From contig JAZNGT010000038.1 of the NCBI GenBank assembly GCA_045576635.1, positions 1 through 64,000 on the forward strand: a stretch of 64,000 nucleotides of DNA. Reading direction: 5' to 3'. The first letter of the stretch is position 1. Every line of letters begins with the position of its first letter. Below the pieces are notes generated by a model that was not told where the DNA came from, did not search any database, and saw nothing but the letters and a program-made list of their open reading frames with translations. Shown piece after piece: positions 66 through 54,556 of this stretch. The translations under genes were made by a program, and so were the position numbers. The stretch is from Congzhengia sp. GTDB lineage: Bacteria; Bacillota; Clostridia; UBA1381; UBA9506.

Positions 66-141
66 TCCTCTATAGCTCAGTCGGTAGAGCGCATGACTGT
101 TAATCATGATGTCGCTGGTTCGAGCCCAGCTGGAGGAGCCA
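66..141 (+). tRNA. tRNA-Asn (anticodon GTT)
   Basis: 76-nt cloverleaf. The 7-bp acceptor stem TCCTCTA/TGGAGGA has one G-U pair. D-arm is GCTC..GAGC. Anticodon stem is CATGA/TCATG with loop CTGTTAA, giving anticodon GTT. T-arm is GCTGG-TTCGAGC-CCAGC, discriminator G, encoded CCA. Confidence 0.85.
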
Positions 142-42746: not shown

Positions 42747-43726
42747 CAGAGTTAAAAACCGTTTCATCCTCGCCGCATATCAGGGCAAACATTTCGACTT
42801 CGTCTATTATGCGTGATGTGTGTATTGCTCTCGTTCCTGCGCTTTTGTGCTCGGTTATATATTTCGGCTTTCGTGCACTTTTGCTGACTGCGCTTTGTAT
42901 GATTTTTTCTGTTGGATTTGAATTTTTGTGGCAGAAAATTACGAAAAGACCTGTCACCATTTCGGACGGAACGGCGGCAGTCACCGGTATGCTTTTGGCG
43001 TTTAACTTGCCCGCCGTTGCGCCGTGGTGGATGGCGCTTGTCGGCGCATTTGTTGCGATTATCATCGCAAAACAGTTTTTTGGCGGTGTCGGCAACAACT
43101 TTATGAACCCCGCCCTCGCGGCGCGTGCATTTTTGCTTGCATCGTGGCCGCTTCTTATGACAACGTGGGTTACACCGCTTTCCGGCGGATTTTTTGGCGC
43201 GGCAGACGTTATCAGTGCGGCAACACCGCTTGCCGTTTTAAAAGACCCGTCGGCAGGAGAACTTCCTTCCATTATGGAACTTTTCATCGGAAACCGCCCG
43301 GGCTGTATCGGTGAAACATCTGTGATTGCACTTGTCCTTGGTGGTATGTATCTTGTGGCAAAACGCGTGATTTCAGTGCGTATTCCGCTTACCTTTATCG
43401 GTACGGTTGCGGTTTTAAGTTTCGTTTTCCCCGCACCCCAACTTTCTCCAATCGAGAGCATGCTTTACAGTGTGTTAAGCGGCGGACTTATGCTCGGTGC
43501 TATCTTTATGGCAACCGATTACGTGACTTCGCCGATGACGCGGGTTGGACAGATTATCATGGGTATCGGCTGCGGCGTTTTAACCTTTGTGATTCGTCGC
43601 TTTGGCGGATATCCCGAGGGCGTAAGTTATTCGATTTTGCTCATGAACGTGGCAACACCGTTAATTGACAAATGGACGCTGCCGAAAACCTTTGGCAGCC
43701 GCACAAAAAAAGGGGGTAACAACTGA
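42743..43726 (+). CDS. rnfD: Rnf complex subunit D
   Basis: Start at the ATGA overlap with the rnfC stop. Polytopic NqrB-like protein with an FMN-attachment region. Confidence 0.8.
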   Translation: MTELKTVSSSPHIRANISTSSIMRDVCIALVPALLCSVIYFGFRALLLTALCMIFSVGFEFLWQKITKRPVTISDGTAAVTGMLLAFNLPAVAPWWMALVGAFVAIIIAKQFFGGVGNNFMNPALAARAFLLASWPLLMTTWVTPLSGGFFGAADVISAATPLAVLKDPSAGELPSIMELFIGNRPGCIGETSVIALVLGGMYLVAKRVISVRIPLTFIGTVAVLSFVFPAPQLSPIESMLYSVLSGGLMLGAIFMATDYVTSPMTRVGQIIMGIGCGVLTFVIRRFGGYPEGVSYSILLMNVATPLIDKWTLPKTFGSRTKKGGNN

Positions 43727-44301
43727 TGCAAAAACAAGAAAATCCCGCAGTGTTATCCTTGGTTTTGTTTGTTATTTCGGCAGTTGTGGCGCTTTTGTTG
43801 GCGTTTACCCATTCTGTGACGAAAGACAAAATCGCAGAAAACACGTTAAAAGAGCAACTGCAAGCAAAACAGGAAGTTTTACAAGAAGCATTTGACTTTT
43901 TAGATGTAGAATTTAAAGACGAAACCGGTCTTGTGCGTTCACTTTCGCAGGGCGTAAGCGGGGACGGAAAACACGTCGGCTGGGTTGCAAATGTTGTGCC
44001 CTCAGGCTATGGCGGCGCAATTGACGTGATGGTAGGAATCGGACTTGACGGGAACTTGACCGGCGTGAAAGTCGTTTCCCATTCGGAAACCGCAGGTCTT
44101 GGCGCAAAGGCGGCAGAGGATGAATTCCCCTCGCAGTATGTGGGAAAATCCATACAAAATCCGTTAACCGTTATTAAAAACGGAACGCCGAAGACAGACG
44201 AAATCGTTGCGATTTCCGGCGCAACCATTACGAGCCGTGCCGTAACAAGCGGCGTAAATGCCGCAATGGATGCGGTAAAACGCTTAAACGGAGGTGTGTA
44301 A
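43726..44301 (+). CDS. rnfG: Rnf complex subunit G (FMN-binding)
   Basis: SGATITSRAV FMN-binding motif and an N-terminal TM anchor. Confidence 0.8.
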   Translation: MQKQENPAVLSLVLFVISAVVALLLAFTHSVTKDKIAENTLKEQLQAKQEVLQEAFDFLDVEFKDETGLVRSLSQGVSGDGKHVGWVANVVPSGYGGAIDVMVGIGLDGNLTGVKVVSHSETAGLGAKAAEDEFPSQYVGKSIQNPLTVIKNGTPKTDEIVAISGATITSRAVTSGVNAAMDAVKRLNGGV

Positions 44302-44302
44302 T

Positions 44303-44911
44303 ATGGGAAATTTTAAAGAACTCACCAAAGGCCTTTTAAAAGAAAATCCCATTTTCGTGCAGTTTCTGGGTATGTGTGCTACGCTCGCCGTTTCGACAAG
44401 CGTGGTAAACGGTCTCGGTATGGGACTTTCTACCGCGGCGGTTTTGGTTATGTCAAACATCATTATTTCGCTCATGCGTAAAGTTATTCCCGATAAGGTG
44501 CGTATTGCGGCTTACATTATTGTAATAGCGGGTTGTGTTACCGCCGTTGAAATGGCAATTAAAGCATTTGCACCGGAGATTTCAAAATCGCTCGGTATTT
44601 TTATTCCGCTTATCGTAGTAAACTGTATCATTTTAGGCCGTGCCGAAGCGTTTGCATCGAAAAACAGTGTCGGAAAATCGGCGCTTGACGGCATCGGCAT
44701 GGGGCTTGGCTTTACACTGGGACTTGTGATTTTAAGTGCGATCCGTGAAATTTTAGGTAATGGTACGTTTTTGGGAATTGCGCTCTTTGGTAAGTCGTTC
44801 CAACCGGTAAGCGTACTTACACTTCCGCCGGGCGGATTTATTATGTTAGGTATTGTGCTTGCGGTGATTAACATTCTCACGAAAAAGCACGGGGAAAGGA
44901 GCGATAAATAA
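44303..44911 (+). CDS. rnfE: Rnf complex subunit E
   Basis: NqrD-like six-TM protein. GGAGGTG RBS. Confidence 0.8.
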   Translation: MGNFKELTKGLLKENPIFVQFLGMCATLAVSTSVVNGLGMGLSTAAVLVMSNIIISLMRKVIPDKVRIAAYIIVIAGCVTAVEMAIKAFAPEISKSLGIFIPLIVVNCIILGRAEAFASKNSVGKSALDGIGMGLGFTLGLVILSAIREILGNGTFLGIALFGKSFQPVSVLTLPPGGFIMLGIVLAVINILTKKHGERSDK

Positions 44912-45495
44912 TGAAACTTTTTGTAGAACTTGTACTCCTTTCTTTAACAACCATTTTAGCAAACAACTATGTATTGGTAAAGTTTTTGGGTATTTGTCCG
45001 TTTTTAGGCGTATCGAAAAAGGTCGGAACGGCAGTCGGTATGAGCGTTGCCGTTACGTTCGTTATGACGGTGGCTTCCTGCGTTACTTTCTTTGTGCAAA
45101 AACTTTTGGTTTTCTTTCAGATTGAATATATGCAGACCGTGGCGTTTATTTTGGTTATTGCAGTTTTGGTGCAAGTGGTGGAAATGGCGATTGCACGCTA
45201 TTCTCCCGCACTTTACAATGCGCTTGGCATTTACCTTCCCTTAATTACCACAAACTGCGCCGTTTTGGGCGTTGCCCTTTTAAACGTGCAGGAGGGATTT
45301 GATTTTGTTCATACACTCGTTTACAGTTTCTCTGCAGGTCTTTCGTTTATGCTTGCAATCGTGTTGTTTGCCGGTGTAAGAGAACGATTAGAAACTGCCG
45401 ATATTCCAAAGCCTTTACAAGGGTTTCCCATTGCGCTTATTACCGCAGGCCTGCTTGCAATGGCATTTCTGGGCTTTTCCGGAATGAGTTTTTAG
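44911..45495 (+). CDS. rnfA: Rnf complex subunit A
   Basis: NqrE-like. Paralogous to rnfE. Confidence 0.8.
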   Translation: MKLFVELVLLSLTTILANNYVLVKFLGICPFLGVSKKVGTAVGMSVAVTFVMTVASCVTFFVQKLLVFFQIEYMQTVAFILVIAVLVQVVEMAIARYSPALYNALGIYLPLITTNCAVLGVALLNVQEGFDFVHTLVYSFSAGLSFMLAIVLFAGVRERLETADIPKPLQGFPIALITAGLLAMAFLGFSGMSF

Positions 45496-45505
45496 GAGGT
45501 AGGGT

Positions 45506-46309
45506 ATGAGAGCAATTTTAGAACCGATTCTTATTTTAAGTGTTATGGGCGCGGTGTTCGGCGTGCTTTTAGGCGTTGCGGCAAAGGCGTTTCGCGTGGA
45601 AAAAGATGAACGTCTTGATTTAATCACAGAACTTTTGCCCGGCGCAAACTGCGGCGGCTGCGGATATGCCGGTTGCGGCGCGATGGCGCAGGCGCTACTT
45701 GACGGTCACGCGGCAGTAAGTGACTGCCCCAGTATGAAAGCAGAAAACAGAGAGCGCATAGCGGCAATTTTAGGCGTAAGCGCCGGAGAAGTACTCCCCA
45801 AAGTTGCGCGCGTAATGTGCAGCGGCTCGTGTACAAGTGCGGTGATGCACTGCTCGTACGAGGGCATTACAGACTGCGTTGCTGCATCCCGCTATGGGGG
45901 CGGCGACAAGGCGTGCAGTTTCGGCTGTATCGGCTACGGAAGTTGCGGCGATGTGTGCCAGTTTGATGCTATTTCGGTTGTAGACGGCGTTGCCGTGGTA
46001 GACAGCGACAAATGTACCGCCTGCGGTATGTGCGTAGACGTTTGTCCGCAGCACGTGATTTCGCTTGTTAATAAAAATCAGAGAACATTTGTAAGTTGTA
46101 TGTCAAAAGACAAAGGCGCAAACCTGAAAAATATTTGCGCGAAAGGCTGCATCGGCTGCCGTATTTGCGAAAAGAATTGTCCGAAAGGCGCAATTACCGT
46201 CGAAGATAATCTGGCGCGTATTGATTACGACCTTTGCGTAAACTGTGGCATCTGTGCAGAAAAATGCCCGAGAAAGATTATAGATTTTACAAGGCCGGAA
46301 GCGGTTTAA
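45506..46309 (+). CDS. rnfB: Rnf complex subunit B (polyferredoxin)
   Basis: N-terminal TM helix, then CGGCGYAGCG and several CxxCxxCxxxCP clusters. Confidence 0.8.
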   Translation: MRAILEPILILSVMGAVFGVLLGVAAKAFRVEKDERLDLITELLPGANCGGCGYAGCGAMAQALLDGHAAVSDCPSMKAENRERIAAILGVSAGEVLPKVARVMCSGSCTSAVMHCSYEGITDCVAASRYGGGDKACSFGCIGYGSCGDVCQFDAISVVDGVAVVDSDKCTACGMCVDVCPQHVISLVNKNQRTFVSCMSKDKGANLKNICAKGCIGCRICEKNCPKGAITVEDNLARIDYDLCVNCGICAEKCPRKIIDFTRPEAV

Positions 46310-46323
46310 CAAAAGATATGATA

Positions 46324-46358
46324 AAAGAAAGCCAATCAAAATGATTGGCTTTCTTTTT
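46324..46358. terminator. bidirectional intrinsic terminator
   Basis: AAAGAAAGCCAATC-AAAAT-GATTGGCTTTCTTTTTC. Confidence 0.7.
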
Positions 46359-46821
46359 CTATGCAAAGATTCAAAATTTTCCGTTCCTTTTTCCGCGCAT
46401 AAGTATAAGCGATTCTTGTGCCGCTTTTTTGTGCGCACGTTTCATCAAAATATACGATACAGAATTTGCTTTGGTTTATCATCTCGTAGTTTCGTTCTAC
46501 ATAACACGCTTTTCCTGCATTTAAAATGCGCTTTGGATAATACGTTTTTTCGTAACACTCTAATAAATAAGAATGATAATCATTCCTGATATATGGAAAT
46601 TCGGCACGGACGTAGACTCTCTTTATAAAGGGGTAGTGTCTTTTTAACTCAGATACGGTCTGGTGACACAAATCGTCAAACGCGCTTTTGCTGCCAAACA
46701 AAAAGGTATCGACATTTTCTTTTACAATCAGCGTTTCGATTGTGCGGTACAGGAACGATTTCATTTTTTCTGTTGCGTCAATTTTACGATGTCCAAAAAA
46801 GCAACAGGTGTTTTCTTTCAT
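46336..46821 (-). CDS. SLOG/DUF1273-like (YpsA/YoqJ-like) protein, hypothetical
   Basis: The N-terminal pattern CFFGHRKI...LIVKENVDTFLFGSKSAFDDLCHQTVSELK resembles the DUF1273 VTGYRP..VLTGGQLGVEQ layout. The assignment is tentative. Confidence 0.35.
   Translation of the reverse strand: MKENTCCFFGHRKIDATEKMKSFLYRTIETLIVKENVDTFLFGSKSAFDDLCHQTVSELKRHYPFIKRVYVRAEFPYIRNDYHSYLLECYEKTYYPKRILNAGKACYVERNYEMINQSKFCIVYFDETCAQKSGTRIAYTYARKKERKILNLCIEKESQSF
46565..46587. promoter_or_regulatory. intragenic copy of 23-bp Fur/PerR-type box AAATAAGAATGATAATCATTCCT
   Basis: Identical to the 23-mer at the perR promoter (54998..55020). It contains the perfect inverted repeat GAATGAT-A-ATCATTC. Confidence 0.5.
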
Positions 46822-46958
46822 ACCGTGTCTCCTTTGTGTAAATGATATGTTAATCATTATATAACATTATTTACATAAAGTAAAGAAACATATACACACG
46901 CTCAATTATATTTTATATCAGTTGTTGGTAAAATAGAATTGAGTAAGGAGGGAGCGCG

Positions 46959-47242: not shown

Positions 47243-47677
47243 TTAGTCGTTTTTATCTGTTTCCCACGAAAGAATAGTGCCGTCGTTTGCTTTGATTTCG
47301 GCGTCATATTCTGTGCCGTCTTTTTTAAATTCGATTTCGTATTTCCACACACCGTCATCTAAATCAAGTTCTGTGCGCGAAAACGTTACGCCGTCTTTTG
47401 TAAGTCCCGCTTTTTTAAGCGCAATTTCTTTTGCTTTTTCTTCTCCGATAAAAGACGCCGTGTCGGGTTTTTGGGACTGCGTCTGTTTTGCGTCCTCTTG
47501 TTTATTGGCATCGGGCATCTGGGATTCCGGCATCTGCGGCTTTGCATCCTCTTTGTTATCCGGCATCATATCGTTTACTTCGTCTTTGATTGGCTCTGTC
47601 ATCTCTGTCAGCGAGCAGGCCGTCATTGCACTTACTGCAATCACTGCTGCAAAAAGCAGAAAAAGTCTTTTTTTCAT
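47243..47677 (-). CDS. PepSY-domain lipoprotein
   Basis: Signal MKKRLFLLFAAVIAVSAMTACS. A Pro/Asp/Lys-rich linker. C-terminal PepSY-like KEIALKKAGLTKDGVTFSRTELDLDDGVWKYEIEF. Confidence 0.55.
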   Translation of the reverse strand: MKKRLFLLFAAVIAVSAMTACSLTEMTEPIKDEVNDMMPDNKEDAKPQMPESQMPDANKQEDAKQTQSQKPDTASFIGEEKAKEIALKKAGLTKDGVTFSRTELDLDDGVWKYEIEFKKDGTEYDAEIKANDGTILSWETDKND

Positions 47678-47760
47678 AACAATCATCTCCCTTTTGTTAG
47701 TATGTCCGTATAGCGCGTATTTAAAAACTGAAAAATTATGAAATAAATTTAGAGTTTCAC

Positions 47761-47789
47761 TTGACAAATCTTGTTTTTTTTGGTAAAAT
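47761..47789 (+). promoter_or_regulatory. sigma70-type promoter of the aromatic amino acid operon leader
   Basis: TTGACA - 17 nt - TAAAAT. Confidence 0.5.
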
Positions 47790-47821
47790 AGTTGAAAATT
47801 CAATTTTAAAAGGTAACAGTT

Positions 47822-47941
47822 ATGAACGTGTCTTTCATGAACACAAGTAAATATTTCTTTTACTTTGGCGTAGTCTTTTATTTTGGCTATGCTTATTTTG
47901 CTATGAAAACGTTACTTGTGAGATTGCGGAGCAGTTTTTAA
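47822..47941 (+). CDS. Phe/Tyr-rich leader peptide (39 aa) of the pheA-aroB-aroA-tyrA-aroF operon
   Basis: Sequence MNVSFMNTSKYFFYFGVVFYFGYAYFAMKTLLVRLRSSF. It has 8 Phe and 5 Tyr in total, and 12 of the 17 codons in a central run are Phe/Tyr. Weak AAAAGG RBS. It ends 36 nt before an intrinsic terminator that immediately precedes pheA. Confidence 0.6.
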   Translation: MNVSFMNTSKYFFYFGVVFYFGYAYFAMKTLLVRLRSSF

Positions 47942-47976
47942 AAATTATTTGAAATTGTATTCAATAATATTTAAAA

Positions 47977-48008
47977 CCTCACTTGTAATTTCACAAGTGG
48001 GGTTTTTC
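47977..48008 (+). terminator. attenuator terminator (segments 3:4) upstream of pheA
   Basis: CCTCACTTGT-AATTTC-ACAAGTGGGG followed by TTTTTC. An alternative pairing of 47912-47922 with 47990-48000 is possible. Confidence 0.6.
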
Positions 48009-48028
48009 TATATTGGGAGGCTTTTAAA

Positions 48029-49117
48029 ATGAAGGACAAATTACAAGAAGCAAGAAAAATCATAAACGACATTGATGCAAAAATGGCAGAACTTTTCGTT
48101 CAGCGGATGAAAGCGAGCGAAATGGTTTTTGCGTATAAAAAAGAATTTGGACTTCCCATTTTTGACCCAAAAAGAGAAGATAGCGTGATTGAAAAGAACG
48201 CGGCGATGATAGAGGATGATGTATTAAAAGGGTATTACATTGACTACATCAAAAACCTTATGTCTGTTTCCAAAGCATATCAGTATCGTTTGCAAAGCGG
48301 GTTGAAAGTTGCATACAGCGGCGTTCCCGGCGCGTTTGCCCACATTGCAGCAGGAAGAATTTTCCCCGACGCAAACCGCGTTTCGTACCGTGATTTTAAA
48401 GCCGCTTATCATTCGGTGGCAGACGGTGCATCCGATGTTGCGATACTTCCCATTGAAAACAGTTACGCAGGCGAAGTCGGGCAGACCATGGACCTTATTT
48501 TCTCCGGAAGCCTCTTTATAAATGGAATTTACGAACTTGAAATTCATCAGAATCTGCTTGGTGTTCCCGGTGCAAGCCTCGAAGATATTCAAAAAGTTAT
48601 AAGTCATCCGCAGGCGTTATCGCAATGCCATGACTATATTAAAATGAGAGGATTCGAAACGGAAGAGGCAAGTAACACCGCTGTTTCCGCCAAAACCGTT
48701 TTCGACATGAATCAAAAATCGTATGGCGCAATTGCAAGTTTAGAAACAGCAGAACTATACGGACTTAAAGTTTTAGAAGCAAACATCAATAAAAGCAATG
48801 AAAATACAACGCGGTTTGCCGTGCTTTCCAAGGTGCGTGCGGCGTTACCCTCGCTTTCCAATTCCGTTCTTATGTTTACCGTAAAAAACGAAGCAGGCTC
48901 TCTTGCAGAAGCAATCAGTATCATAGGAAAATACGGCTACAACATGACGGCACTTAGAAGCAGACCCTTAAAAAAACATTCGTGGCAATACTATTTCTAT
49001 ATTGAAATTGACGGCTCGACAGACACCGAAAAGGGAAAAAAGATGATTGAAGAATTAAACCATGTGTGCGACAAACTTAAAATTGCAGGAACGTTTGCGC
49101 CGCATGCAGAGATTTGA
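48029..49117 (+). CDS. pheA: bifunctional chorismate mutase / prephenate dehydratase
   Basis: AroQ chorismate mutase N-terminal domain. PDT domain with TRF/ESRP-type motifs (TALRSRPLKK) and a C-terminal ACT domain. Confidence 0.8.
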   Translation: MKDKLQEARKIINDIDAKMAELFVQRMKASEMVFAYKKEFGLPIFDPKREDSVIEKNAAMIEDDVLKGYYIDYIKNLMSVSKAYQYRLQSGLKVAYSGVPGAFAHIAAGRIFPDANRVSYRDFKAAYHSVADGASDVAILPIENSYAGEVGQTMDLIFSGSLFINGIYELEIHQNLLGVPGASLEDIQKVISHPQALSQCHDYIKMRGFETEEASNTAVSAKTVFDMNQKSYGAIASLETAELYGLKVLEANINKSNENTTRFAVLSKVRAALPSLSNSVLMFTVKNEAGSLAEAISIIGKYGYNMTALRSRPLKKHSWQYYFYIEIDGSTDTEKGKKMIEELNHVCDKLKIAGTFAPHAEI

Positions 49118-49126
49118 GGTAAAGCA

Positions 49127-50155
49127 ATGAAGATACACTTAAATTTAGAGAATAACAGTTATGATATCTTGGTAGAAAGAGGCATTTTAAAGGCTTTGGG
49201 GGCGCATCTTAATTTAAAAAGACGCGTTCTTATCGTAACCGATACCGGTGTTCCCGAAATGTATGCAAAAACAGTTGCAGCGCAATGTAAGGCGCCTGTG
49301 ATTCAGACAGTGCCCATGGGCGAGGGCGCAAAAAGCCTTGAAATGTTTGGTGCGCTTCTTAACACGATGCTAAAAAATAACTTTTCAAGAAAGGACTGCG
49401 TTGTCGCAGTTGGCGGCGGCGTCGTTGGCGACCTTTCAGGGTTTGCAGCATCTGCGTACATGCGGGGGATTGACTTTTACAACATCCCGACGACGCTCCT
49501 TTCGCAGATTGATTCTTCTATCGGCGGAAAAACCGCAATCAACTTTGGCGGTGTAAAAAATATTGTCGGCGCATTTTATCAGCCAAAGAAAGTTTTAATA
49601 GACCCCGACCTTTTATCTACGCTCCCCGCGCGTCAGATTGCAAACGGACTTGCAGAAGCCATCAAAATGGCGTTAACATCAGACAAGGAACTCTTTCACC
49701 TCTTTGAAACGCAGGATGTTTTAAAGAGTCTTGACGAGATTATCATTCGCTCGCTCCATATCAAAAAGAATGTTGTTGAAGAGGACGAGAAAGAAACGGG
49801 CCTCAGGAAAATTCTCAATTTCGGCCATACCGTAGGTCACGGAATCGAAAGCAGTGTGCAAACGCTTTATCACGGAGAATGTGTTGCACTTGGAATGATT
49901 CCTATGTGTGATGAGGCGATCAGGGAAAAAGTCATAAAGGTACTTAAAAAATGTAACCTTTTTACCATTCCTGCATTTGACTGGGATGCAATCAAAAAAG
50001 CCGCATTTCACGACAAAAAGGCTGACGGGGAAATGGTTACCGTTGTCACGGTAAACGATGTGGGTTCTTTTGAACTTAAAACCGTAAAAAGCGAAACTGT
50101 AATCGAAATGGCAAAAGACTGTTTTTGCGCCATTTTGCAAAAAGAAGGTAACTGA
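49127..50155 (+). CDS. aroB: 3-dehydroquinate synthase
   Basis: GGGVVGDLSGFAASAYMRGIDFYNIPTTLLSQIDSSIGGKTAINF. Confidence 0.8.
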   Translation: MKIHLNLENNSYDILVERGILKALGAHLNLKRRVLIVTDTGVPEMYAKTVAAQCKAPVIQTVPMGEGAKSLEMFGALLNTMLKNNFSRKDCVVAVGGGVVGDLSGFAASAYMRGIDFYNIPTTLLSQIDSSIGGKTAINFGGVKNIVGAFYQPKKVLIDPDLLSTLPARQIANGLAEAIKMALTSDKELFHLFETQDVLKSLDEIIIRSLHIKKNVVEEDEKETGLRKILNFGHTVGHGIESSVQTLYHGECVALGMIPMCDEAIREKVIKVLKKCNLFTIPAFDWDAIKKAAFHDKKADGEMVTVVTVNDVGSFELKTVKSETVIEMAKDCFCAILQKEGN

Positions 50156-50156
50156 A

Positions 50157-51359
50157 ATGATAGCAAACATAAAACCATGTAACTTAAAAGGAACGATAGA
50201 TGCGCCGCCCTCTAAAAGTCTGGCGCACCGGTACTTGATTGGTGCCTTTATTTCCAATGCGGAATGCAGGATATCCGGCGTCGATTTTAGCGAAGATATT
50301 CTTGCAAGTAAAGAGTGTTTAAAGGCGCTCGGTGCCGATGTTACAGTGCAAAATGATGCGGTAAGCATACGTCCTCGCGGCTTTATGCATGCAGAAACTG
50401 TATCCTTAAATTGCAGAGAAAGCGGAAGCACGTTAAGGTTTTTATTGCCGCTTGCACTGTGTCTTGGAAAGCCGGTTACCTTAAAGGGCAGCAAACGCCT
50501 TTTTGAGCGGCCGCTTACAGTTTACGAAGACCTTGCAAAAGAAAACGGCTTTCTGTTTGAAAAAAGCGAAAATGCAGTCACGGTTTGCGGAACGTTACAA
50601 GGCGGGACATATAAGGTCCGAGGCGATATCAGCAGTCAGTTTATTACGGGACTTATCTTTGCGTTTTTATATTTAGGAGAAGAAGCCGAACTTCAAATTC
50701 TTCCGCCTTTTGAAAGTAAGCCGTATGTGCATCTTACCATTTCTGCCTTAAAAGCATTTGGTGCGGATGTGGCGTTTTTAGATGAATATACCATACAGGT
50801 AAAAAAGGCGCAACTTCACGCGTTTTCGGGCAAAATAGAAGGCGATTATTCAAATGCCGCATTTCTGGATGCATTCAATTATACCGGTTCTGACATTAAG
50901 ATACACAATCTCATTCCCGACAGTGTGCAGGGCGACAAGGTATACAAAACATACTTTGAAAAAATACAGGCGGGAACGCCAACGCTTGACATTTCCGATT
51001 GCCCCGATTTAGCGCCCGTGCTTATTGCACTCGCATCACTTAAAAACGGCGCAACGCTTTTAGGAACCAACAGATTAAAGGAAAAAGAAAGCGACAGAGG
51101 ACGCGCGATGCACGAAGAACTTAAAAAACTCGGCGGAGGGCTTGTTTTTTCCGATAACGCCATTGTCGTACCGAAGCAGGAACTTTTCTATAAAGGAACG
51201 GTTTTAGACGGGCACAATGACCACAGAATTGTTATGGCAATGTCTTTTGTGCTTACGCATACGGGCGGAGAAATAGCGGGGATTGAAGCAGTCAAAAAAA
51301 GTTATCCCGGCTTTTTCGATGATTTATTAAAACTTGGAGCAGTGGTGGATATAACATGA
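50157..51359 (+). CDS. aroA: 3-phosphoshikimate 1-carboxyvinyltransferase (EPSP synthase)
   Basis: PPSKSLAHR N-terminal motif. 400 aa. Confidence 0.8.
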   Translation: MIANIKPCNLKGTIDAPPSKSLAHRYLIGAFISNAECRISGVDFSEDILASKECLKALGADVTVQNDAVSIRPRGFMHAETVSLNCRESGSTLRFLLPLALCLGKPVTLKGSKRLFERPLTVYEDLAKENGFLFEKSENAVTVCGTLQGGTYKVRGDISSQFITGLIFAFLYLGEEAELQILPPFESKPYVHLTISALKAFGADVAFLDEYTIQVKKAQLHAFSGKIEGDYSNAAFLDAFNYTGSDIKIHNLIPDSVQGDKVYKTYFEKIQAGTPTLDISDCPDLAPVLIALASLKNGATLLGTNRLKEKESDRGRAMHEELKKLGGGLVFSDNAIVVPKQELFYKGTVLDGHNDHRIVMAMSFVLTHTGGEIAGIEAVKKSYPGFFDDLLKLGAVVDIT

Positions 51360-52204
51360 TAGTAGATGTAAGTAAAAAAATACTGATTGTCGGTCTTGGA
51401 CTTTTGGGCGGTAGTTATGCGAGGGTTTTAAAACGATTCGGCTTTCACATAAGTGCCGTTACGAAAGAACAGAGTGCAATCGATTATGCATTAAAGGAAG
51501 GCTTGATTGACGAGGGAACAACTGAACTTGATAAAAAAATCATTGGCGAAGCGGACCTTGTTATTTTTGCCCTTTACCCGCACATTTTTGTAGAATGGAT
51601 TGAGAAAAACCAAAATTTATTAAAAAGCGGTGCGCTTTTAACAGATGTAACAGGTGTCAAGGGCAGTATTGTATATAAAATTCAGGATATGTTAAGGGAC
51701 GATGTGGAATTTATTGCCGCACACCCAATGGCAGGTCGTGAGGTTTCAGGCGTCGAAAACAGCACAGACACGCTGTTTCAGGGAGCAAACTATATCGTAA
51801 CGCCCACAGACAAAAACACGCCCGAAGCAATCGAAACCGCAATGGAACTTGGTAGACTTCTCGGTTTTTCCAATGTTACCACGCTTTCGCCGGAAGAACA
51901 CGACGAAATGATAGGCTTTCTTTCGCAGTTAACCCATTGTATTGCAATCACACTGATGACTTGCAACGACAAAGAAAATATGGAAAAGTTTACAGGGGAC
52001 TCCTTCCGTGCCCTTACCCGTATTGCACGCATCAACGACCGGATGTGGGGCGAACTCTTTGTGGCAAACAAGGAGGCGCTGCTTCATCAGATGCATCTGT
52101 TTATCGATAAATTCAATGCACTCAAAACGATGCTTGAAACAGAAGATACAGAAGGCATGAGAGAAATGATGCGTCTTTCAACAAAACGCAGAGCGTTATT
52201 CTAA
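51356..52204 (+). CDS. tyrA: prephenate dehydrogenase
   Basis: ILIVGLGLLGGSYA Rossmann motif. 4-nt overlap with aroA. Confidence 0.8.
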   Translation: MIVDVSKKILIVGLGLLGGSYARVLKRFGFHISAVTKEQSAIDYALKEGLIDEGTTELDKKIIGEADLVIFALYPHIFVEWIEKNQNLLKSGALLTDVTGVKGSIVYKIQDMLRDDVEFIAAHPMAGREVSGVENSTDTLFQGANYIVTPTDKNTPEAIETAMELGRLLGFSNVTTLSPEEHDEMIGFLSQLTHCIAITLMTCNDKENMEKFTGDSFRALTRIARINDRMWGELFVANKEALLHQMHLFIDKFNALKTMLETEDTEGMREMMRLSTKRRALF

Positions 52205-52228
52205 AAATTATATTGGAGGATACTGAAA

Positions 52229-53257
52229 ATGAATATGAATTTCAAACGCAAACTGCCAATCCCTATGGAGATAAAAGAGCAGTACCCGTTGTCCTATAAG
52301 CACGAGCAGTTAAAGTTAAAAAGAGATGCGGAAATTAAATCCATCTTTGAGGGAAAAGACGAAAGATTTCTTCTCATTATAGGTCCGTGTTCTGCCGACC
52401 ATGATGACAGCGTGATTGATTACATTTCGCGTTTAAGAGACGTTCAGGAAAAAGTGGCAGATAAAATTTATATCATTCCTAGAATCTACACCAACAAACC
52501 CCGAACCACCGGAGACGGCTACAAAGGCATGCTTCATCAGCCCGACCCCAACAAAGAATCGGATATGATAAAGGGCGTAGTGGCAATCAGAAATCTGCAT
52601 ATCAGAGCCATCAGTGAAACAGGTTTTACTTGTGCTGATGAAATGCTTTATCCCGAAAATCACAGATACCTTTCGGACCTCTTATCGTATGTTGCAATCG
52701 GTGCGCGGTCGGTTGAAAACCAAAACCACAGACTCACCGCAAGCGGACTTGACATTCCCGTTGGCATGAAAAATCCTACCGCAGGCGATATCTCTGTTAT
52801 GATGAACTCTATCACTGCGGCGCAACACGCGCACACCTTTATTTACAGAGGTTGGGAAGTTGAAAGCGGCGGCAACCCCCTCGCACACGCAATTTTGCGC
52901 GGTTATGTAAACAAGCACGGCGAGGCAACGCCGAACTATCATTACGAAGACCTTATCCATCTTGCCGAAATTTATGCGAAATCCGGTCTTAAAAATCCTG
53001 CGGTTATTATTGATACCAATCATGCAAACTCCGGAAAGAAATGGATGGAACAGCCGCGAATTGCAAAAGAAGTGCTTCATAGTTGCCGTCACAGTAAGGA
53101 TATCAAAAAGATCGTAAAAGGTCTTATGATTGAAAGTTATATTGAAGACGGCGCACAAAAGCCGGAAGAATGTGTTTACGGAAAATCAATAACCGACCCG
53201 TGTCTTGGTTGGGAAAAGACAGAACGGCTTATTTATGATCTGGCAGAGGTGCTTTGA
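52229..53257 (+). CDS. aroF: 3-deoxy-7-phosphoheptulonate (DAHP) synthase, type I-alpha
   Basis: LLIIGPCS..RIYTNKPRTTGDGYKGM motifs are typical of AroG/AroF-type DAHP synthases. Confidence 0.8.
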   Translation: MNMNFKRKLPIPMEIKEQYPLSYKHEQLKLKRDAEIKSIFEGKDERFLLIIGPCSADHDDSVIDYISRLRDVQEKVADKIYIIPRIYTNKPRTTGDGYKGMLHQPDPNKESDMIKGVVAIRNLHIRAISETGFTCADEMLYPENHRYLSDLLSYVAIGARSVENQNHRLTASGLDIPVGMKNPTAGDISVMMNSITAAQHAHTFIYRGWEVESGGNPLAHAILRGYVNKHGEATPNYHYEDLIHLAEIYAKSGLKNPAVIIDTNHANSGKKWMEQPRIAKEVLHSCRHSKDIKKIVKGLMIESYIEDGAQKPEECVYGKSITDPCLGWEKTERLIYDLAEVL

Positions 53258-53282
53258 TAGCGTTAGGTGCAACAAAAAAGGG

Positions 53283-53322
53283 ATGAGCAAATGCTCATCC
53301 CTTTTCATTTTTATTTAAAATA
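53283..53322 (+). terminator. rho-independent terminator of the aromatic operon
   Basis: AAAAAGGGATGAGC-AAAT-GCTCATCCCTTTTCATTTTT. Confidence 0.7.
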
Positions 53323-53968: not shown

Positions 53969-54556
53969 TTATTTAAAGTATCTCTTTAAAAGTCCTTCTA
54001 AGCCTCTGCCGTGGCGAGCTTCGTCGCGCGCCATTTCGTGAACGGTGTCGTGGATTGCATCCAAGCCGTTTTTCTTCGCGCAAGCCGCCAAGTCAAACTT
54101 ACCTTTCGTTGCGCCGTATTCACAGTCAACGCGCCATTTTAAGTTGTCTTTGGTGGTTGCTTTCATGTTGGGTTCTAAATCTTCGCCTAAAAGTTCAGCG
54201 AATTTTGCAGCGTGTTCTGCTTCTTCATACGCTGCTTTTTCCCAGTAAAGACCTACTTCGGGGTAGCCCTCGCGGTGCGCGATGCGCGCCATGCAGAGAT
54301 ACATACCTACTTCAGCGCATTCGCCGTTAAAGTTTGCCATAAGTTGTTCGAAGATATATTTTTTATCTTCTTCGGAAATATCGGGGTTGTTCTTTACGGT
54401 TTTTGCGTAAACGCCGTATTCATGTTCTGCAGCCAACGCTGCGCCTTCTTCCATAATGGTAAATTTTTCGCCGGCTACTTTACATACCGGGCAAGCCTCG
54501 GGAGCCGTTTCTCCTTCGTGAACGTATCCGCAAACGGGACATACAAATTTTTTCAT
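53969..54556 (-). CDS. rbr: reverse rubrerythrin (N-terminal rubredoxin-like, C-terminal diiron ferritin-like domain)
   Basis: N-terminal CPVCGY...CPVCK rubredoxin motif followed by an ExxH-containing four-helix diiron domain. Confidence 0.8.

What the first reader, a model, noticed from the sequence alone, without database searches (positions are those of the whole stretch)
47761..48028. Ribosome-mediated attenuator with a Phe/Tyr-rich leader peptide upstream of pheA-aroB-aroA-tyrA-DAHP synthase in a Firmicute
The ORF track missed a 39-codon ORF at 47822-47941. It encodes MNVSFMNTSKYFFYFGVVFYFGYAYFAMKTLLVRLRSSF, in which 12 of 17 consecutive codons are Phe or Tyr. These are exactly the two end products of the downstream operon (pheA Phe branch, tyrA Tyr branch, DAHP synthase entry step).

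Four RNA segments provide the classic mutually exclusive pairings:
- Segment 1, CACAAGUAA (47842-47850), is perfectly complementary to segment 2, UUACUUGUG (47912-47920).
- Segment 3, CCUCACUUGU (47977-47986), and segment 4, ACAAGUGGGG (47993-48002), form a terminator hairpin followed by UUUUUC, 20 nt before the pheA start.
- Segment 2 (47912-47922) can alternatively pair with 47990-48000, overlapping segment 4, which would prevent terminator formation.

The predicted logic is as follows. A ribosome stalled on the F/Y codons masks segment 1, freeing segment 2 to sequester segment 4, so transcription reads through. A ribosome reaching the stop codon masks segment 2, so the terminator forms.

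Leader-peptide attenuation of aromatic operons is textbook in Proteobacteria. In low-GC Gram-positives these operons are normally controlled by T-box, TRAP or repressor systems. A combined Phe+Tyr leader for a fused pheA/tyrA/aroF operon would therefore be unusual.
Basis: partly seen in the sequence, partly recalled or inferred. Interest (0 to 1): 0.75.

Follow-up and report, generated by a model that had tools for sequence, protein, structure and literature searches.

The report
Phe/Tyr leader-peptide attenuator before pheA
A short, translated mini-gene packed with phenylalanine and tyrosine codons, followed by switchable RNA hairpins, sits in front of a five-gene Phe/Tyr biosynthesis operon of an uncultured gut Clostridium; it most likely turns the operon on when these two amino acids run short. 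This is a textbook mechanism in a new, undescribed family, and close relatives use a T-box at the same place.

Summary
At 47761-48008 there is a near-consensus promoter, a Shine-Dalgarno site, a 39-codon ORF (47822-47941) and an intrinsic terminator 20 nt before pheA-aroB-aroA-tyrA-DAHP synthase. The ORF has 11 Phe/Tyr codons in 16, not 12 of 17.

Fifty-two other species of the same uncultured Clostridia group carry the same element. Start codon, SD and reading frame are conserved: 9 of 10 indels in the ORF are multiples of three, against 7 of 83 in the linker. Phe/Tyr identity is conserved, with free F/Y interchange. The 1:2 helix, an inner hairpin and the terminator are kept, with some compensatory changes.

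The conserved antiterminator is the classical 2:3 pairing (UAC..GUGAG with CUCAC..GUA). The proposed 2:4 pairing shows no covariation, although in this window it extends to an 18-bp helix about as stable as the terminator state.

No Rfam family matches. The peptide is almost never annotated.

Six relatives have a Phe T-box at the same position. Another clade has an unrelated F/Y-rich leader, and some relatives have decayed leaders.

It is a new family of a known mechanism. Regulation by Phe/Tyr is inferred, not shown.

The parts
47761..47789 (+). Sigma-70-type promoter: TTGACA (47761-47766), 17-nt spacer, TAAAAT (47784-47789), with an extended -10 TG at 47781-47782. The inferred transcription start is about 47796-47797.
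   Evidence: 11 of 12 matches, and the only + strand promoter-like site between 47000 and 48100. TTGACA and TATAAT-like hexamers are conserved in the homologous loci.
47810..47814 (+). Shine-Dalgarno site of the leader ORF (AAGGU), 7 nt before the ATG.
   Evidence: GAAGGTAA at fixed spacing in front of the ATG in all 53 leaders. G16 and G17 are invariant in alignment A1.
47822..47941 (+). Leader ORF of 39 codons: MNVSFMNTSKYFFYFGVVFYFGYAYFAMKTLLVRLRSSF.
   Evidence: The ATG is invariant. Nine of 10 indels in the ORF are multiples of three.
47852..47899 (+). Control codons: 11 Phe/Tyr codons among 16 (Y11 F12 F13 Y14 F15, F19 Y20 F21, Y23, Y25 F26).
   Evidence: the densest F/Y stretch in the window; 50 of 65 variant codon instances at these positions remain F or Y.
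47842..47850 (+). Segment 1 (CACAAGUAA), the 5' arm of the 1:2 helix. It lies immediately 5' of the first F/Y cluster.
   Evidence: helix 1 is 93.1% paired in 53 sequences.
47854..47857 (+). 5' side of a short 4-bp extension of the 1:2 domain (UUUC pairing with GAAA at 47905-47908).
   Evidence: helix 2 is 90.1% paired.
47867..47893 (+). Inner hairpin inside the ORF (GGCGUAGUC / GGCUAUGCU, 9 bp). It stacks inside the 1:2 helix and explains why the non-aromatic codons S/G-V-A and G-Y-A are conserved.
   Evidence: it is in the RNAalifold consensus; 98.1% paired. The loop-closing pair is CG:32, UG:11, UA:8.
47905..47908 (+). 3' side of the 4-bp extension of the 1:2 domain (GAAA pairing with UUUC at 47854-47857).
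   Evidence: helix 2 is 90.1% paired.
47912..47925 (+). Segment 2 (UUACUUGUGAGAUU). Bases 47912-47920 pair with segment 1. Bases 47913-47925 pair with segment 3 (antiterminator). In this window 47912-47929 can also pair with 47983-48000.
47934..47979 (+). A+U-rich linker hairpin between the leader's stop codon and the terminator. It forms the top of the antiterminator domain. Its sequence is variable among species.
   Evidence: linker indels are of arbitrary length (7 of 83 are multiples of three).
47976..47987 (+). Segment 3 (ACCUCACUUGUA). It is the 5' arm of the terminator and the 3' arm of the 2:3 antiterminator.
   Evidence: 2:3 is 91.7% paired; alignment column 195 (47976) covaries with partners in both helices.
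47973..48008 (+). Intrinsic terminator: 14-bp stem (47973-47986 with 47993-48006, -18.3 kcal/mol), a 6-nt loop and the U run at 48003-48007. It ends 20 nt before the pheA ATG.
   Evidence: 93.5% paired, and 4 pairs have changes on both sides.
48029..53257 (+). The regulated operon: pheA (chorismate mutase/prephenate dehydratase, 48029-49117), aroB (49127-50155), aroA (50157-51359), tyrA (51356-52204) and class I-alpha DAHP synthase (52229-53257).
   Evidence: NCBIfam; the ORFs are tightly spaced or overlapping.
53276..53305 (+). Terminator at the end of the operon (13-bp stem).

Best explanation
This is a classical ribosome-mediated (leader-peptide) transcription attenuator. It makes expression of the Phe/Tyr biosynthetic operon depend on the supply of charged tRNA-Phe and tRNA-Tyr.

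**Proposed sequence of events.**
1. Transcription starts about 47797, and a ribosome loads on the 39-codon leader ORF.
2. When Phe-tRNA or Tyr-tRNA is scarce, the ribosome stalls in the run of 11 F/Y codons (47852-47899).
3. A ribosome stalled in the first cluster covers segment 1 (47842-47850).
4. Segment 2 (47912-47925) is then free. It pairs with segment 3 (47976-47987) as soon as segment 3 is made, through UAC..GUGAG with CUCAC..GUA on top of an A+U-rich linker hairpin.
5. In this window, segment 2 can also zip on into an 18-bp helix with the terminator loop and segment 4.
6. The terminator cannot form, and RNA polymerase reads into pheA.

**When both amino acids are plentiful.** The ribosome runs over segment 2 to the stop codon. 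It keeps 2:3 from forming, and segment 1 re-pairs with segment 2 behind it. Segments 3 and 4 then form the terminator, and transcription stops 20 nt before pheA.

**Without translation.** The stable 1:2 domain (-23.9 kcal/mol) also favours termination.

**Shown here.** The parts, their conservation, the conserved reading frame, the conserved F/Y identity, and the mutually exclusive helices.

**Inferred.** That the ORF is translated, that stalling is the signal, that both amino acids count, and the order of folding events.
For: **Anatomy in the window.** A promoter, SD, ORF and terminator lie directly upstream of pheA. There is no room for another promoter.

**Conservation.** The same element is present in 52 other species whose PheA is 77-83% identical.

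**Evidence for translation.**
- The ATG is invariant, and the SD core (GG) is invariant at fixed spacing.
- Nine of 10 indels between the ATG and segment 2 are multiples of three, against 7 of 83 in the linker.
- N-terminal codons vary freely.
- At the ten F/Y positions, 50 of 65 variant codon instances stay F or Y. Two of 9 would be expected for single-base changes. TTT/TAT interchange is frequent.

**Evidence for structure.**
- The terminator-state structure is 94.2% paired. It has 33 double-change cells, against 7.6 in shuffles.
- RNAalifold keeps the inner hairpin and the terminator.
- The 2:3 helix is 91.7% paired. Its pair 138/195 is CG:28, UA:16.
- The same column 195 also covaries with its terminator partner.
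- The GUGAG:CUCAC core is present in all 53. This includes a subgroup in which GUGAG sits about 14 nt further downstream.

**Folding with a ribosome footprint masked.**
- In the window, stalls at codons 11-15 and 20-23 remove the terminator from the minimum-free-energy structure. A ribosome at the stop codon restores 1:2 plus the terminator.
- On transcripts ending at segment 3, the stalled state gives 2:3 in many homologues.

**Independent support.**
- An unrelated F/Y-rich leader (for example MNNNKFYFYFYYFNKGCPSFVKTEN) with its own terminator precedes the orthologous operon in another clade.
- A Phe-specific T-box occupies the same position in six relatives.
- In a metagenome scan, every true copy with enough sequence is followed by pheA.
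- No Rfam family explains the region.
Against: - There are no experimental data. Translation, stalling and conditional readthrough are all inferred.
- In most homologues, the equilibrium structure of the full-length leader keeps the terminator even with segment 1 masked. The antiterminator must therefore win kinetically, which cannot be tested here.
- In the window the 2:3 core is weak: 5+3 bp, with a duplex energy of -10.6 kcal/mol.
- The second F/Y cluster (codons 19-26) lies far enough from segment 1 that a single ribosome stalled there would not cover it. With masks at codons 19, 25 and 26, the model still predicts 1:2 plus the terminator.
- Covariation rests on few independent events. The sequences are closely related, and most helix positions never vary or vary on one side only.
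- In the 39-codon version, the ribosome at the stop codon barely reaches GUGAG.
Confidence: 0.82

Rival explanations
1. The same attenuator, but the working antiterminator is the first reader's 2:4 pairing. Segment 2 sequesters the 3' arm of the terminator, and 2:3 plays no role.
For: - In the window, 47912-47929 pairs with 47983-48000 (18 bp). This forms a long hairpin of -35.2 kcal/mol.
- With 2:4 forced, the full-leader ensemble energy is -60.3 kcal/mol, against -58.5 with the terminator forced.
- That hairpin is the minimum-free-energy structure when a stalled ribosome masks segment 1.
- The same holds in L053 and L067.
Against: - Across 53 sequences, 2:4 shows no covariation above shuffles.
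- Its extension beyond the part that merely mirrors segment 3 is paired in only 52% of cells.
- In most homologues it does not displace the terminator at equilibrium.
- It needs segment 4, which emerges right next to its hairpin partner segment 3, so it is kinetically disadvantaged.
- The complementarity follows automatically from segment 2 resembling segment 3.
Confidence: 0.1
2. The ORF encodes a functional small hydrophobic protein with its own terminator. Alternatively, the leader is a protein- or ligand-binding RNA switch in which the F/Y codons are incidental.
For: - The aromatic and hydrophobic core followed by basic residues resembles a small membrane peptide.
- Several non-aromatic residues are conserved.
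- The peptide is called as a hypothetical protein in a few assemblies.
Against: - The conserved non-aromatic codons are the arms of an RNA hairpin. They change in a compensatory way that alters the amino acid, for example S/G together with a synonymous A codon.
- The N- and C-terminal residues and the ORF length (27-46 aa) vary freely.
- The element is found only in front of pheA.
- Only 20 nt separate its terminator from pheA, so the operon depends on readthrough.
- An unrelated peptide that shares only its F/Y richness does the same job in a sister clade.
- There is no Rfam or Pfam match.
Confidence: 0.05
3. A decayed or non-functional relic. The operon would be expressed constitutively through a leaky terminator, and the conservation would reflect only recent common ancestry.
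For: - Some relatives do carry decayed leaders (L015, L069, L052) or only the terminator (L030, L041, L044, L073).
- The sequences are closely related.
Against: - In the window, all parts are intact.
- PheA has diverged to 77-83% identity across the same genomes. The leader nevertheless keeps its frame, start codon, SD, F/Y codons and helices, while the linker between them has diverged freely.
Confidence: 0.03

Closest known systems
pheL-pheA attenuator of Escherichia coli and other gamma-proteobacteria (Rfam Phe_leader; PMC3082878)
   Same: - A short leader ORF rich in the end-product's codons sits in front of pheA (chorismate mutase/prephenate dehydratase).
- It has 1:2, 2:3 and 3:4 alternative helices, and an intrinsic terminator just before the gene.
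   Different: - There is no sequence or covariance-model similarity (no hit).
- The ORF is 39 codons, not about 15.
- It mixes Phe and Tyr codons rather than Phe only.
- The control codons lie between segments 1 and 2, in the loop of the 1:2 domain, rather than within segment 1.
- It governs a five-gene operon that also holds tyrA, aroA, aroB and DAHP synthase.
- The host is a Clostridium.
Multivalent leader peptides of E. coli thr (Thr+Ile) and ilvGMEDA (Leu, Val, Ile) operons (established knowledge)
   Same: A single leader peptide carries codons for more than one amino acid, matched to a branched pathway, so that shortage of any of them relieves termination.
   Different: - The amino acids differ, and the sequences are unrelated.
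- To my knowledge no combined Phe+Tyr leader has been described. None turned up in four full-text literature searches.
Leader-peptide attenuators described in Firmicutes: His leaders of the Bacillus cereus group, Peptostreptococcaceae and Erysipelotrichales (PMC2965389, PMC9413887) and the Leu-rich ilv-leu leader of Staphylococcus aureus (PMC5794164)
   Same: These are amino-acid-specific leader peptides with a terminator and antiterminator in low-GC Gram-positives. They occur in lineages where relatives use T-boxes or repressors, and they show patchy, lineage-specific distribution.
   Different: - They concern other amino acids and other operons, and the sequences are unrelated.
- Here two different F/Y leader designs and a Phe T-box alternate among close relatives at one operon.
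T-box leader (RF00230) with a Phe specifier
   Same: - It sits at the same genomic position, before the orthologous pheA operon, in six related species.
- It gives the same output, conditional termination, and senses the same underlying signal, tRNA charging.
   Different: - A T-box binds uncharged tRNA directly and reads a single codon (UUC).
- The window's element has no T-box sequence or fold. It would sense charging through the ribosome, for two amino acids.
Ribosome-mediated transcription attenuation of bmrCD and related antibiotic-response genes in Bacillus subtilis (PMC4191407, PMC6851288)
   Same: It shows that ribosome position on a leader ORF can decide between terminator and antiterminator in a Firmicute.
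   Different: There the stall is caused by antibiotics, not by shortage of a charged tRNA, and the genes controlled are not biosynthetic.

Membership tests
Leader-peptide (ribosome-mediated) transcription attenuators of amino-acid biosynthetic operons | A short ORF with its own ribosome-binding site and start codon, between the promoter and the first structural gene. | tested here: met
   The promoter is at 47761-47789, the SD at 47810-47814 and the ORF at 47822-47941. The SD and ATG are conserved in all 53 leaders.
Leader-peptide (ribosome-mediated) transcription attenuators of amino-acid biosynthetic operons | A cluster of codons for the amino acid(s) made by the operon. | tested here: met
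   Eleven F/Y codons among 16, the densest such stretch in the window. F/Y identity is kept in 50 of 65 variant codon instances. The operon encodes the Phe and Tyr branches plus common-pathway steps.
Leader-peptide (ribosome-mediated) transcription attenuators of amino-acid biosynthetic operons | An intrinsic terminator between the leader ORF and the first structural gene. | tested here: met
   A 14-bp stem plus U run at 47973-48008. It is conserved with compensatory changes.
Leader-peptide (ribosome-mediated) transcription attenuators of amino-acid biosynthetic operons | Mutually exclusive helices: an antiterminator that shares bases with the terminator, and an upstream helix that shares bases with the antiterminator. 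| tested here: met
   1:2 and 2:3 share 47913-47920. 2:3 and 3:4 share 47976-47986. All three are conserved. Column 195 covaries with partners in both 2:3 and 3:4.
Leader-peptide (ribosome-mediated) transcription attenuators of amino-acid biosynthetic operons | Geometry such that a ribosome stalled at the control codons frees the antiterminator, and a ribosome reaching the stop codon prevents it. | tested here: inconclusive
   - Footprint-masked folding gives the expected switch for codons 11-15 and 20-23 and for the stop codon in the window.
- It does not give the switch for codons 19, 25 and 26.
- In most homologues the switch is seen only on transcripts truncated after segment 3.
Leader-peptide (ribosome-mediated) transcription attenuators of amino-acid biosynthetic operons | The ORF is translated, and readthrough rises when the cognate charged tRNA is limiting. 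| not testable with these tools
   The only evidence is indirect: the reading frame is conserved (9 of 10 indels are multiples of three) and codon identity is conserved.
Rfam Phe_leader (gamma-proteobacterial pheL) and other Rfam leader families | A match to the family's covariance model. | tested here: not met
   No leader family appears among the matches up to E = 10 in 47600-48200. The weak hits only reflect the terminator hairpin. Nothing reaches gathering score in the window except a tRNA.
T-box leader (RF00230) | Stem I with a specifier loop, and the conserved T-box sequence forming the antiterminator bulge. | tested here: not met
   There is no T-box match in the window. The same model scores 98-108 bits at the equivalent position in six relatives.

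The most novel reading that the evidence does not exclude
In one clade of uncultured gut Clostridia, the same aromatic amino-acid operon has repeatedly exchanged its sensor among three designs:
- a Phe T-box;
- a three-helix F/Y leader peptide, as in the window;
- an unrelated, independently evolved two-helix F/Y leader.

The F/Y leaders would give dual Phe+Tyr sensing that a single-codon T-box cannot. This would also imply that these Firmicutes keep the lead ribosome close enough to RNA polymerase for amino-acid attenuation to work. That is not expected from the uncoupled transcription and translation described for Bacillus subtilis (my own knowledge).
Probability: 0.35. Interest if true: 0.65.

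Novelty: new member of a known kind. Interest (0 to 1): 0.5.

Why it matters
**For annotation.**
- It adds a well-supported leader-peptide attenuator family to a phylum where amino-acid operons are expected to use T-boxes, TRAP or repressors. It is undescribed as far as I could check.
- It shows a single leader reading two amino acids (Phe and Tyr), matched to an operon that contains both branches and the pathway entry step.
- It explains a conserved 'intergenic' block in front of pheA in many gut Clostridia MAGs.
- It flags a micro-ORF that gene callers nearly always miss: 14 hits among 5.8 billion proteins.

**For evolution and mechanism.**
- Close relatives carry a Phe T-box, a second unrelated F/Y leader, decayed leaders, or only a bare terminator at the same operon.
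- This is a natural series for asking how and why sensors are exchanged.
- It also allows a test of whether ribosome-coupled attenuation works in Clostridia.

The mechanism itself is textbook, so the advance is one of scope rather than principle.

Tried and rejected
- **Rfam.** I searched the leader at E up to 10 and the whole window at gathering score. No leader, T-box or riboswitch family matched. The weak hits (SpF11, trpB motif, PyrG leader, PyrR) align only to the terminator hairpin, and I rejected them.
- **2:4 antiterminator.** I tested it by pair counts. It shows no covariation, so I kept it only as a window-specific addition.
- **Equilibrium folding.** I folded the full-length leaders with ribosome masks. 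In most homologues the terminator stays, so equilibrium folding alone does not show the switch. I therefore used transcripts truncated after segment 3.
- **Protein search.** I repeated the search with the 40-aa homologue from L011, which found only 14 unnamed hits.
- **Metagenome scan.** An 18-mer gave 49 stretches, of which 39 were chance matches lacking the rest of the leader.
- **Other F/Y-rich ORFs.** A scan of the window found no second such ORF.
- **Literature.** Four searches found no description of a Phe/Tyr leader in Clostridia. The library lacks most subscription journals, so this is not proof of absence.
- **Covariance model.** I did not build one.
Full report
**1. The observation**

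- The ORF at 47822-47941 encodes MNVSFMNTSKYFFYFGVVFYFGYAYFAMKTLLVRLRSSF.
- The four segments and the UUUUUC run are at the stated coordinates.
- The next ATG (48029) opens a 362-aa ORF.

One detail is off. The Phe/Tyr run is 11 of 16 codons (Y11 to F26), not 12 of 17. It is still the densest stop-free F/Y stretch in all six frames of the 64-kb window. The runner-up has 9.

Other checks on the window:
- The consensus scan finds one strong promoter on the + strand just upstream: TTGACA, 17 nt, TAAAAT with an extended -10 TG, at 47761-47789, 11 of 12 matches.
- It also finds a 14-bp terminator at 47973-48006 followed by a U run.
- The leader from about 47797 to 48015 folds to -57 kcal/mol, z = -6.0 against dinucleotide shuffles. 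The 1:2 helix, an inner hairpin and the terminator are all in the minimum-free-energy structure.
- NCBIfam confirms the downstream genes: chorismate mutase/prephenate dehydratase, 3-dehydroquinate synthase, EPSP synthase, prephenate dehydrogenase and a class I-alpha DAHP synthase.
- The operon ends at a terminator at 53276-53305.
- The unit is flanked by rnf genes and two minus-strand genes upstream, and by a minus-strand rubrerythrin gene downstream.
- Only 20 nt separate the leader terminator from the pheA ATG, and no other promoter-like site lies between. The operon must therefore be transcribed through that terminator.

**2. Relatives**

A scan of one genome per species with the PheA protein returned 80 loci. 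All are metagenome-assembled Clostridia, mostly from ruminant and other animal guts, with PheA 77-83% identical.

In 52 of them a micro-ORF of the same kind lies at the same place. A typical sequence is MNLALSSASKYFFSFSVAFYFGYAYFAMKKLLVRA. All have GAAGGTAA at fixed spacing before an invariant ATG.

*Evidence that the ORF is read as codons:*
- Between the ATG and segment 2 there are ten indel events, and nine are of 3 or 6 bases. In the linker after the stop codon only 7 of 83 are multiples of three.
- Codons 2-9 and the C-terminal tail vary freely, and ORF length ranges from 27 to 46 codons.
- At the ten F/Y positions, 50 of 65 non-consensus codon instances still encode F or Y. Single-base changes of TTT or TAT would give that result in 2 of 9 cases. 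F and Y replace each other often.
- The conserved non-aromatic codons (S/G-V-A and G-Y-A) are the two arms of an RNA hairpin. They change together in ways that alter the amino acid. The constraint there is on the RNA, not on the peptide.

**3. RNA structure across the family** (alignment A1: 53 sequences, 237 columns)

| Structure | Cells paired | Covariation |
|---|---|---|
| Terminator state (1:2, 4-bp extension, inner hairpin, 3:4) | 94.2% | 33 cells changed on both sides vs 7.6 in shuffles; slid controls pair at 32-52% |
| 2:3 (UAC..GUGAG.GC with GC.CUCAC..GUA; window 47913-47925 with 47976-47987) | 91.7% | one strongly covarying pair, CG:28, UA:16 |

- RNAalifold keeps the inner hairpin and the terminator.
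- The 3' partner of the covarying 2:3 pair (column 195, window 47976) also covaries with its terminator partner (AU:22, GC:14, GU:14). That is what mutually exclusive helices predict.
- The best duplex between the segment-2 and segment-3 regions contains GUGAG:CUCAC in all 53 sequences. In a divergent subgroup (L004, L010, L027, L032, L043) the original segment 2 has changed, and a new AGAGUGAGUUUUAG at the very end of the ORF pairs with CUAAAACCUCACU.
- The 2:4 complementarity follows simply from segment 2 resembling segment 3.

**4. Folding with a ribosome footprint masked**

*In the window:*
- Masking about 28 nt around a ribosome stalled at codons 11-15 or 20-23 removes the terminator from the minimum-free-energy structure. 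A long hairpin (47905-48007, -35.2 kcal/mol) replaces it, in which 47912-47929 pairs with 47983-48000.
- Masking at the stop codon gives 1:2 plus the terminator.
- The full-leader ensemble energies are -58.5 kcal/mol (terminator forced) and -60.3 (2:4 forced), so the two states are nearly balanced.

*In the homologues:*
- In most of them the full-length equilibrium structure keeps the terminator whatever is masked.
- On transcripts cut just after segment 3, which is the moment of decision, the stalled state gives the 2:3 helix in many homologues. In the window, 2:3 is the minimum-free-energy structure of 47905-47988 (-16.4 kcal/mol).

I conclude that the conserved antiterminator is 2:3 and works kinetically, as in classical attenuators. 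The window has in addition a lineage-specific extension towards segment 4.

*Weak points:*
- The window's 2:3 core is short.
- A single ribosome stalled in the second F/Y cluster would not cover segment 1.

**5. What it is not**

- No Rfam family matches the leader, even at E = 10. The weak hits align only to the terminator.
- The whole window has no gathering-level match other than a tRNA.
- It is not a T-box.
- The peptide has no Pfam domain. It has only 14 relatives among 5.8 billion predicted proteins, all unnamed.
- A metagenome scan with an 18-mer from the ORF gave ten true copies. Every copy with enough sequence is followed by pheA.

**6. The same operon in other relatives**

- **T-box.** Six loci (L005, L007, L018, L062, L065, L066) have a T-box leader at this position, scoring 98-108 bits against a gathering score of 93. 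The specifier reads GAA-UUC, that is Phe. This comes from the cmscan alignment for L007 and from reading the other five.
- **Second leader type.** Fourteen loci form one PheA clade in which a class I-beta-like DAHP synthase gene precedes pheA. In eleven of them, the ones where the locus reaches far enough, that gene is preceded by its own promoter and SD and by a different leader such as MNNNKFYFYFYYFNKGCPSFVKTEN. Its GGGCUGCCCGU (codons G-C-P-S) pairs with ACGGACAGUCC, which overlaps the 5' arm of a terminator. It shares only F/Y richness with the window's leader, so it is an independent solution to the same problem.
- **Decayed or missing leaders.** Other loci have decayed leaders (L015, L052, L069) or only the terminator after an ACT-domain gene (L030, L041, L044, L073).
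- **Distribution on the tree.** On a rough neighbour-joining tree of PheA, the window lies in a clade where type-1 leaders, T-boxes and decayed forms are interleaved. This suggests repeated turnover. The tree is too crude to count events.

**7. Mechanism, and what is shown versus inferred**

*Shown:*
- the parts and their conservation;
- the conserved reading frame and F/Y identity;
- three conserved helices that exclude one another pairwise.

*Inferred from the established model of leader-peptide attenuation:*
- Stalling at F/Y codons when Phe-tRNA or Tyr-tRNA is short leaves segment 2 free to capture segment 3, so transcription reads through.
- Unimpeded translation to the stop codon lets 1:2 and 3:4 form, so transcription terminates.
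- Without translation, the strong 1:2 domain (-23.9 kcal/mol) should also favour termination.

The mixed codon content suggests multivalent control by both end products, as in the thr and ilv leaders of E. coli. That suits an operon holding both branches and the entry enzyme. A single-codon Phe T-box, as in the relatives, could not provide it.

**8. Comparison with what is known**

- Leader-peptide attenuation is textbook in Proteobacteria. [quoted passage not shown]
- In Firmicutes it has been reported for His (PMC2965389, PMC9413887) and for Leu/BCAA in Staphylococcus aureus (PMC5794164).
- Ribosome-mediated attenuation of antibiotic-response genes is established in Bacillus subtilis (PMC4191407, PMC6851288).
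- I found no description of a Phe/Tyr leader in Clostridia in four full-text searches. The library lacks most subscription journals.
- The element meets the structural criteria of the mechanistic class. It fails the homology tests for the Rfam leader families and for the T-box.

**9. Verdict**

The correction is that the conserved antiterminator is 2:3.
- It is a new family of a known kind of regulator.
- Its interest lies in its host range, its dual-amino-acid leader and the sensor turnover among close relatives, not in a new principle.
- Interest is 0.5.
- Confidence that it is a Phe/Tyr-responsive leader-peptide attenuator is about 0.8. The remaining doubt is experimental.

Noticed in passing
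L012, L026, L039, L046, L051, L060, L068, L070, L072, L074, L076 (e.g. L070:1611-1821): A second, unrelated F/Y-rich leader sits upstream of a DAHP synthase (I-beta-like)-pheA operon in a sister clade. An example is MNNNKFYFYFYYFNKGCPSFVKTEN, with 8-9 consecutive F/Y codons. It has its own promoter and an AAGGAGG SD. A helix GGGCUGCCCGU:ACGGACAGUCC overlaps the 5' arm of a terminator. It looks like a simpler two-helix attenuator, in which the antiterminator's 5' arm lies inside the ORF.
   Followed up: partly
L005:2699-2949, L007:2626-2870, L018:2680-2928, L062:2703-2951, L065:2645-2894, L066:1043-1291: T-box leaders (98-108 bits) with a UUC (Phe) specifier sit upstream of the orthologous pheA in six related species, in place of the leader peptide. 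In L007, a degenerate copy of the CCUCACUUG-type terminator still lies between the T-box and pheA. This hints that the T-box replaced a leader there.
   Followed up: partly
L015, L052, L069; L030, L041, L044, L073 (300-400 nt upstream of pheA): Some relatives carry decayed versions of the leader ORF, with stop codons, a frameshift or a partial deletion. Others have only the terminator hairpin directly after an ACT-domain (pheB-like) gene. This implies loss of the sensor, or readthrough control by some other means.
   Followed up: no
L004, L010, L027, L032, L043 (leader region upstream of pheA): This is a variant subgroup of the window-type leader. It follows an ACT-domain gene with no evident promoter of its own. 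Segment 2 has changed, and the GUGAG antiterminator arm has moved about 14 nt downstream, onto the last codons and stop codon of the ORF. In this subgroup, 1:2 and the antiterminator no longer overlap.
   Followed up: partly
A1 columns 42-53 (window 47835-47844): In many homologues, codons 5-9 of the leader contain a second CAAGUG or CAAGU, as in UUUCAAGUGCAAGUAAA. This is identical to the start of segment 4, so it is a possible extra pairing partner for segments 2 and 3. The window itself lacks it (CAUGAACACAAGU).
   Followed up: no
window 43726-46309 (+), 46336-46857 (-), 47243-47680 (-), 53969-54556 (-): Neighbouring genes:
- rnfG-, rnfE-, rnfA- and rnfB-like genes upstream
- a weak YpsA/SLOG-like ORF
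- a PepSY-domain protein
- a rubrerythrin gene downstream

None is related to aromatic amino-acid metabolism.
   Followed up: partly
L007:701-1049, L065:785-1131; window 66-138: tmRNA genes lie about 1.6-1.9 kb upstream of the T-box in two relatives. There is a tRNA gene at the start of the window.
   Followed up: no
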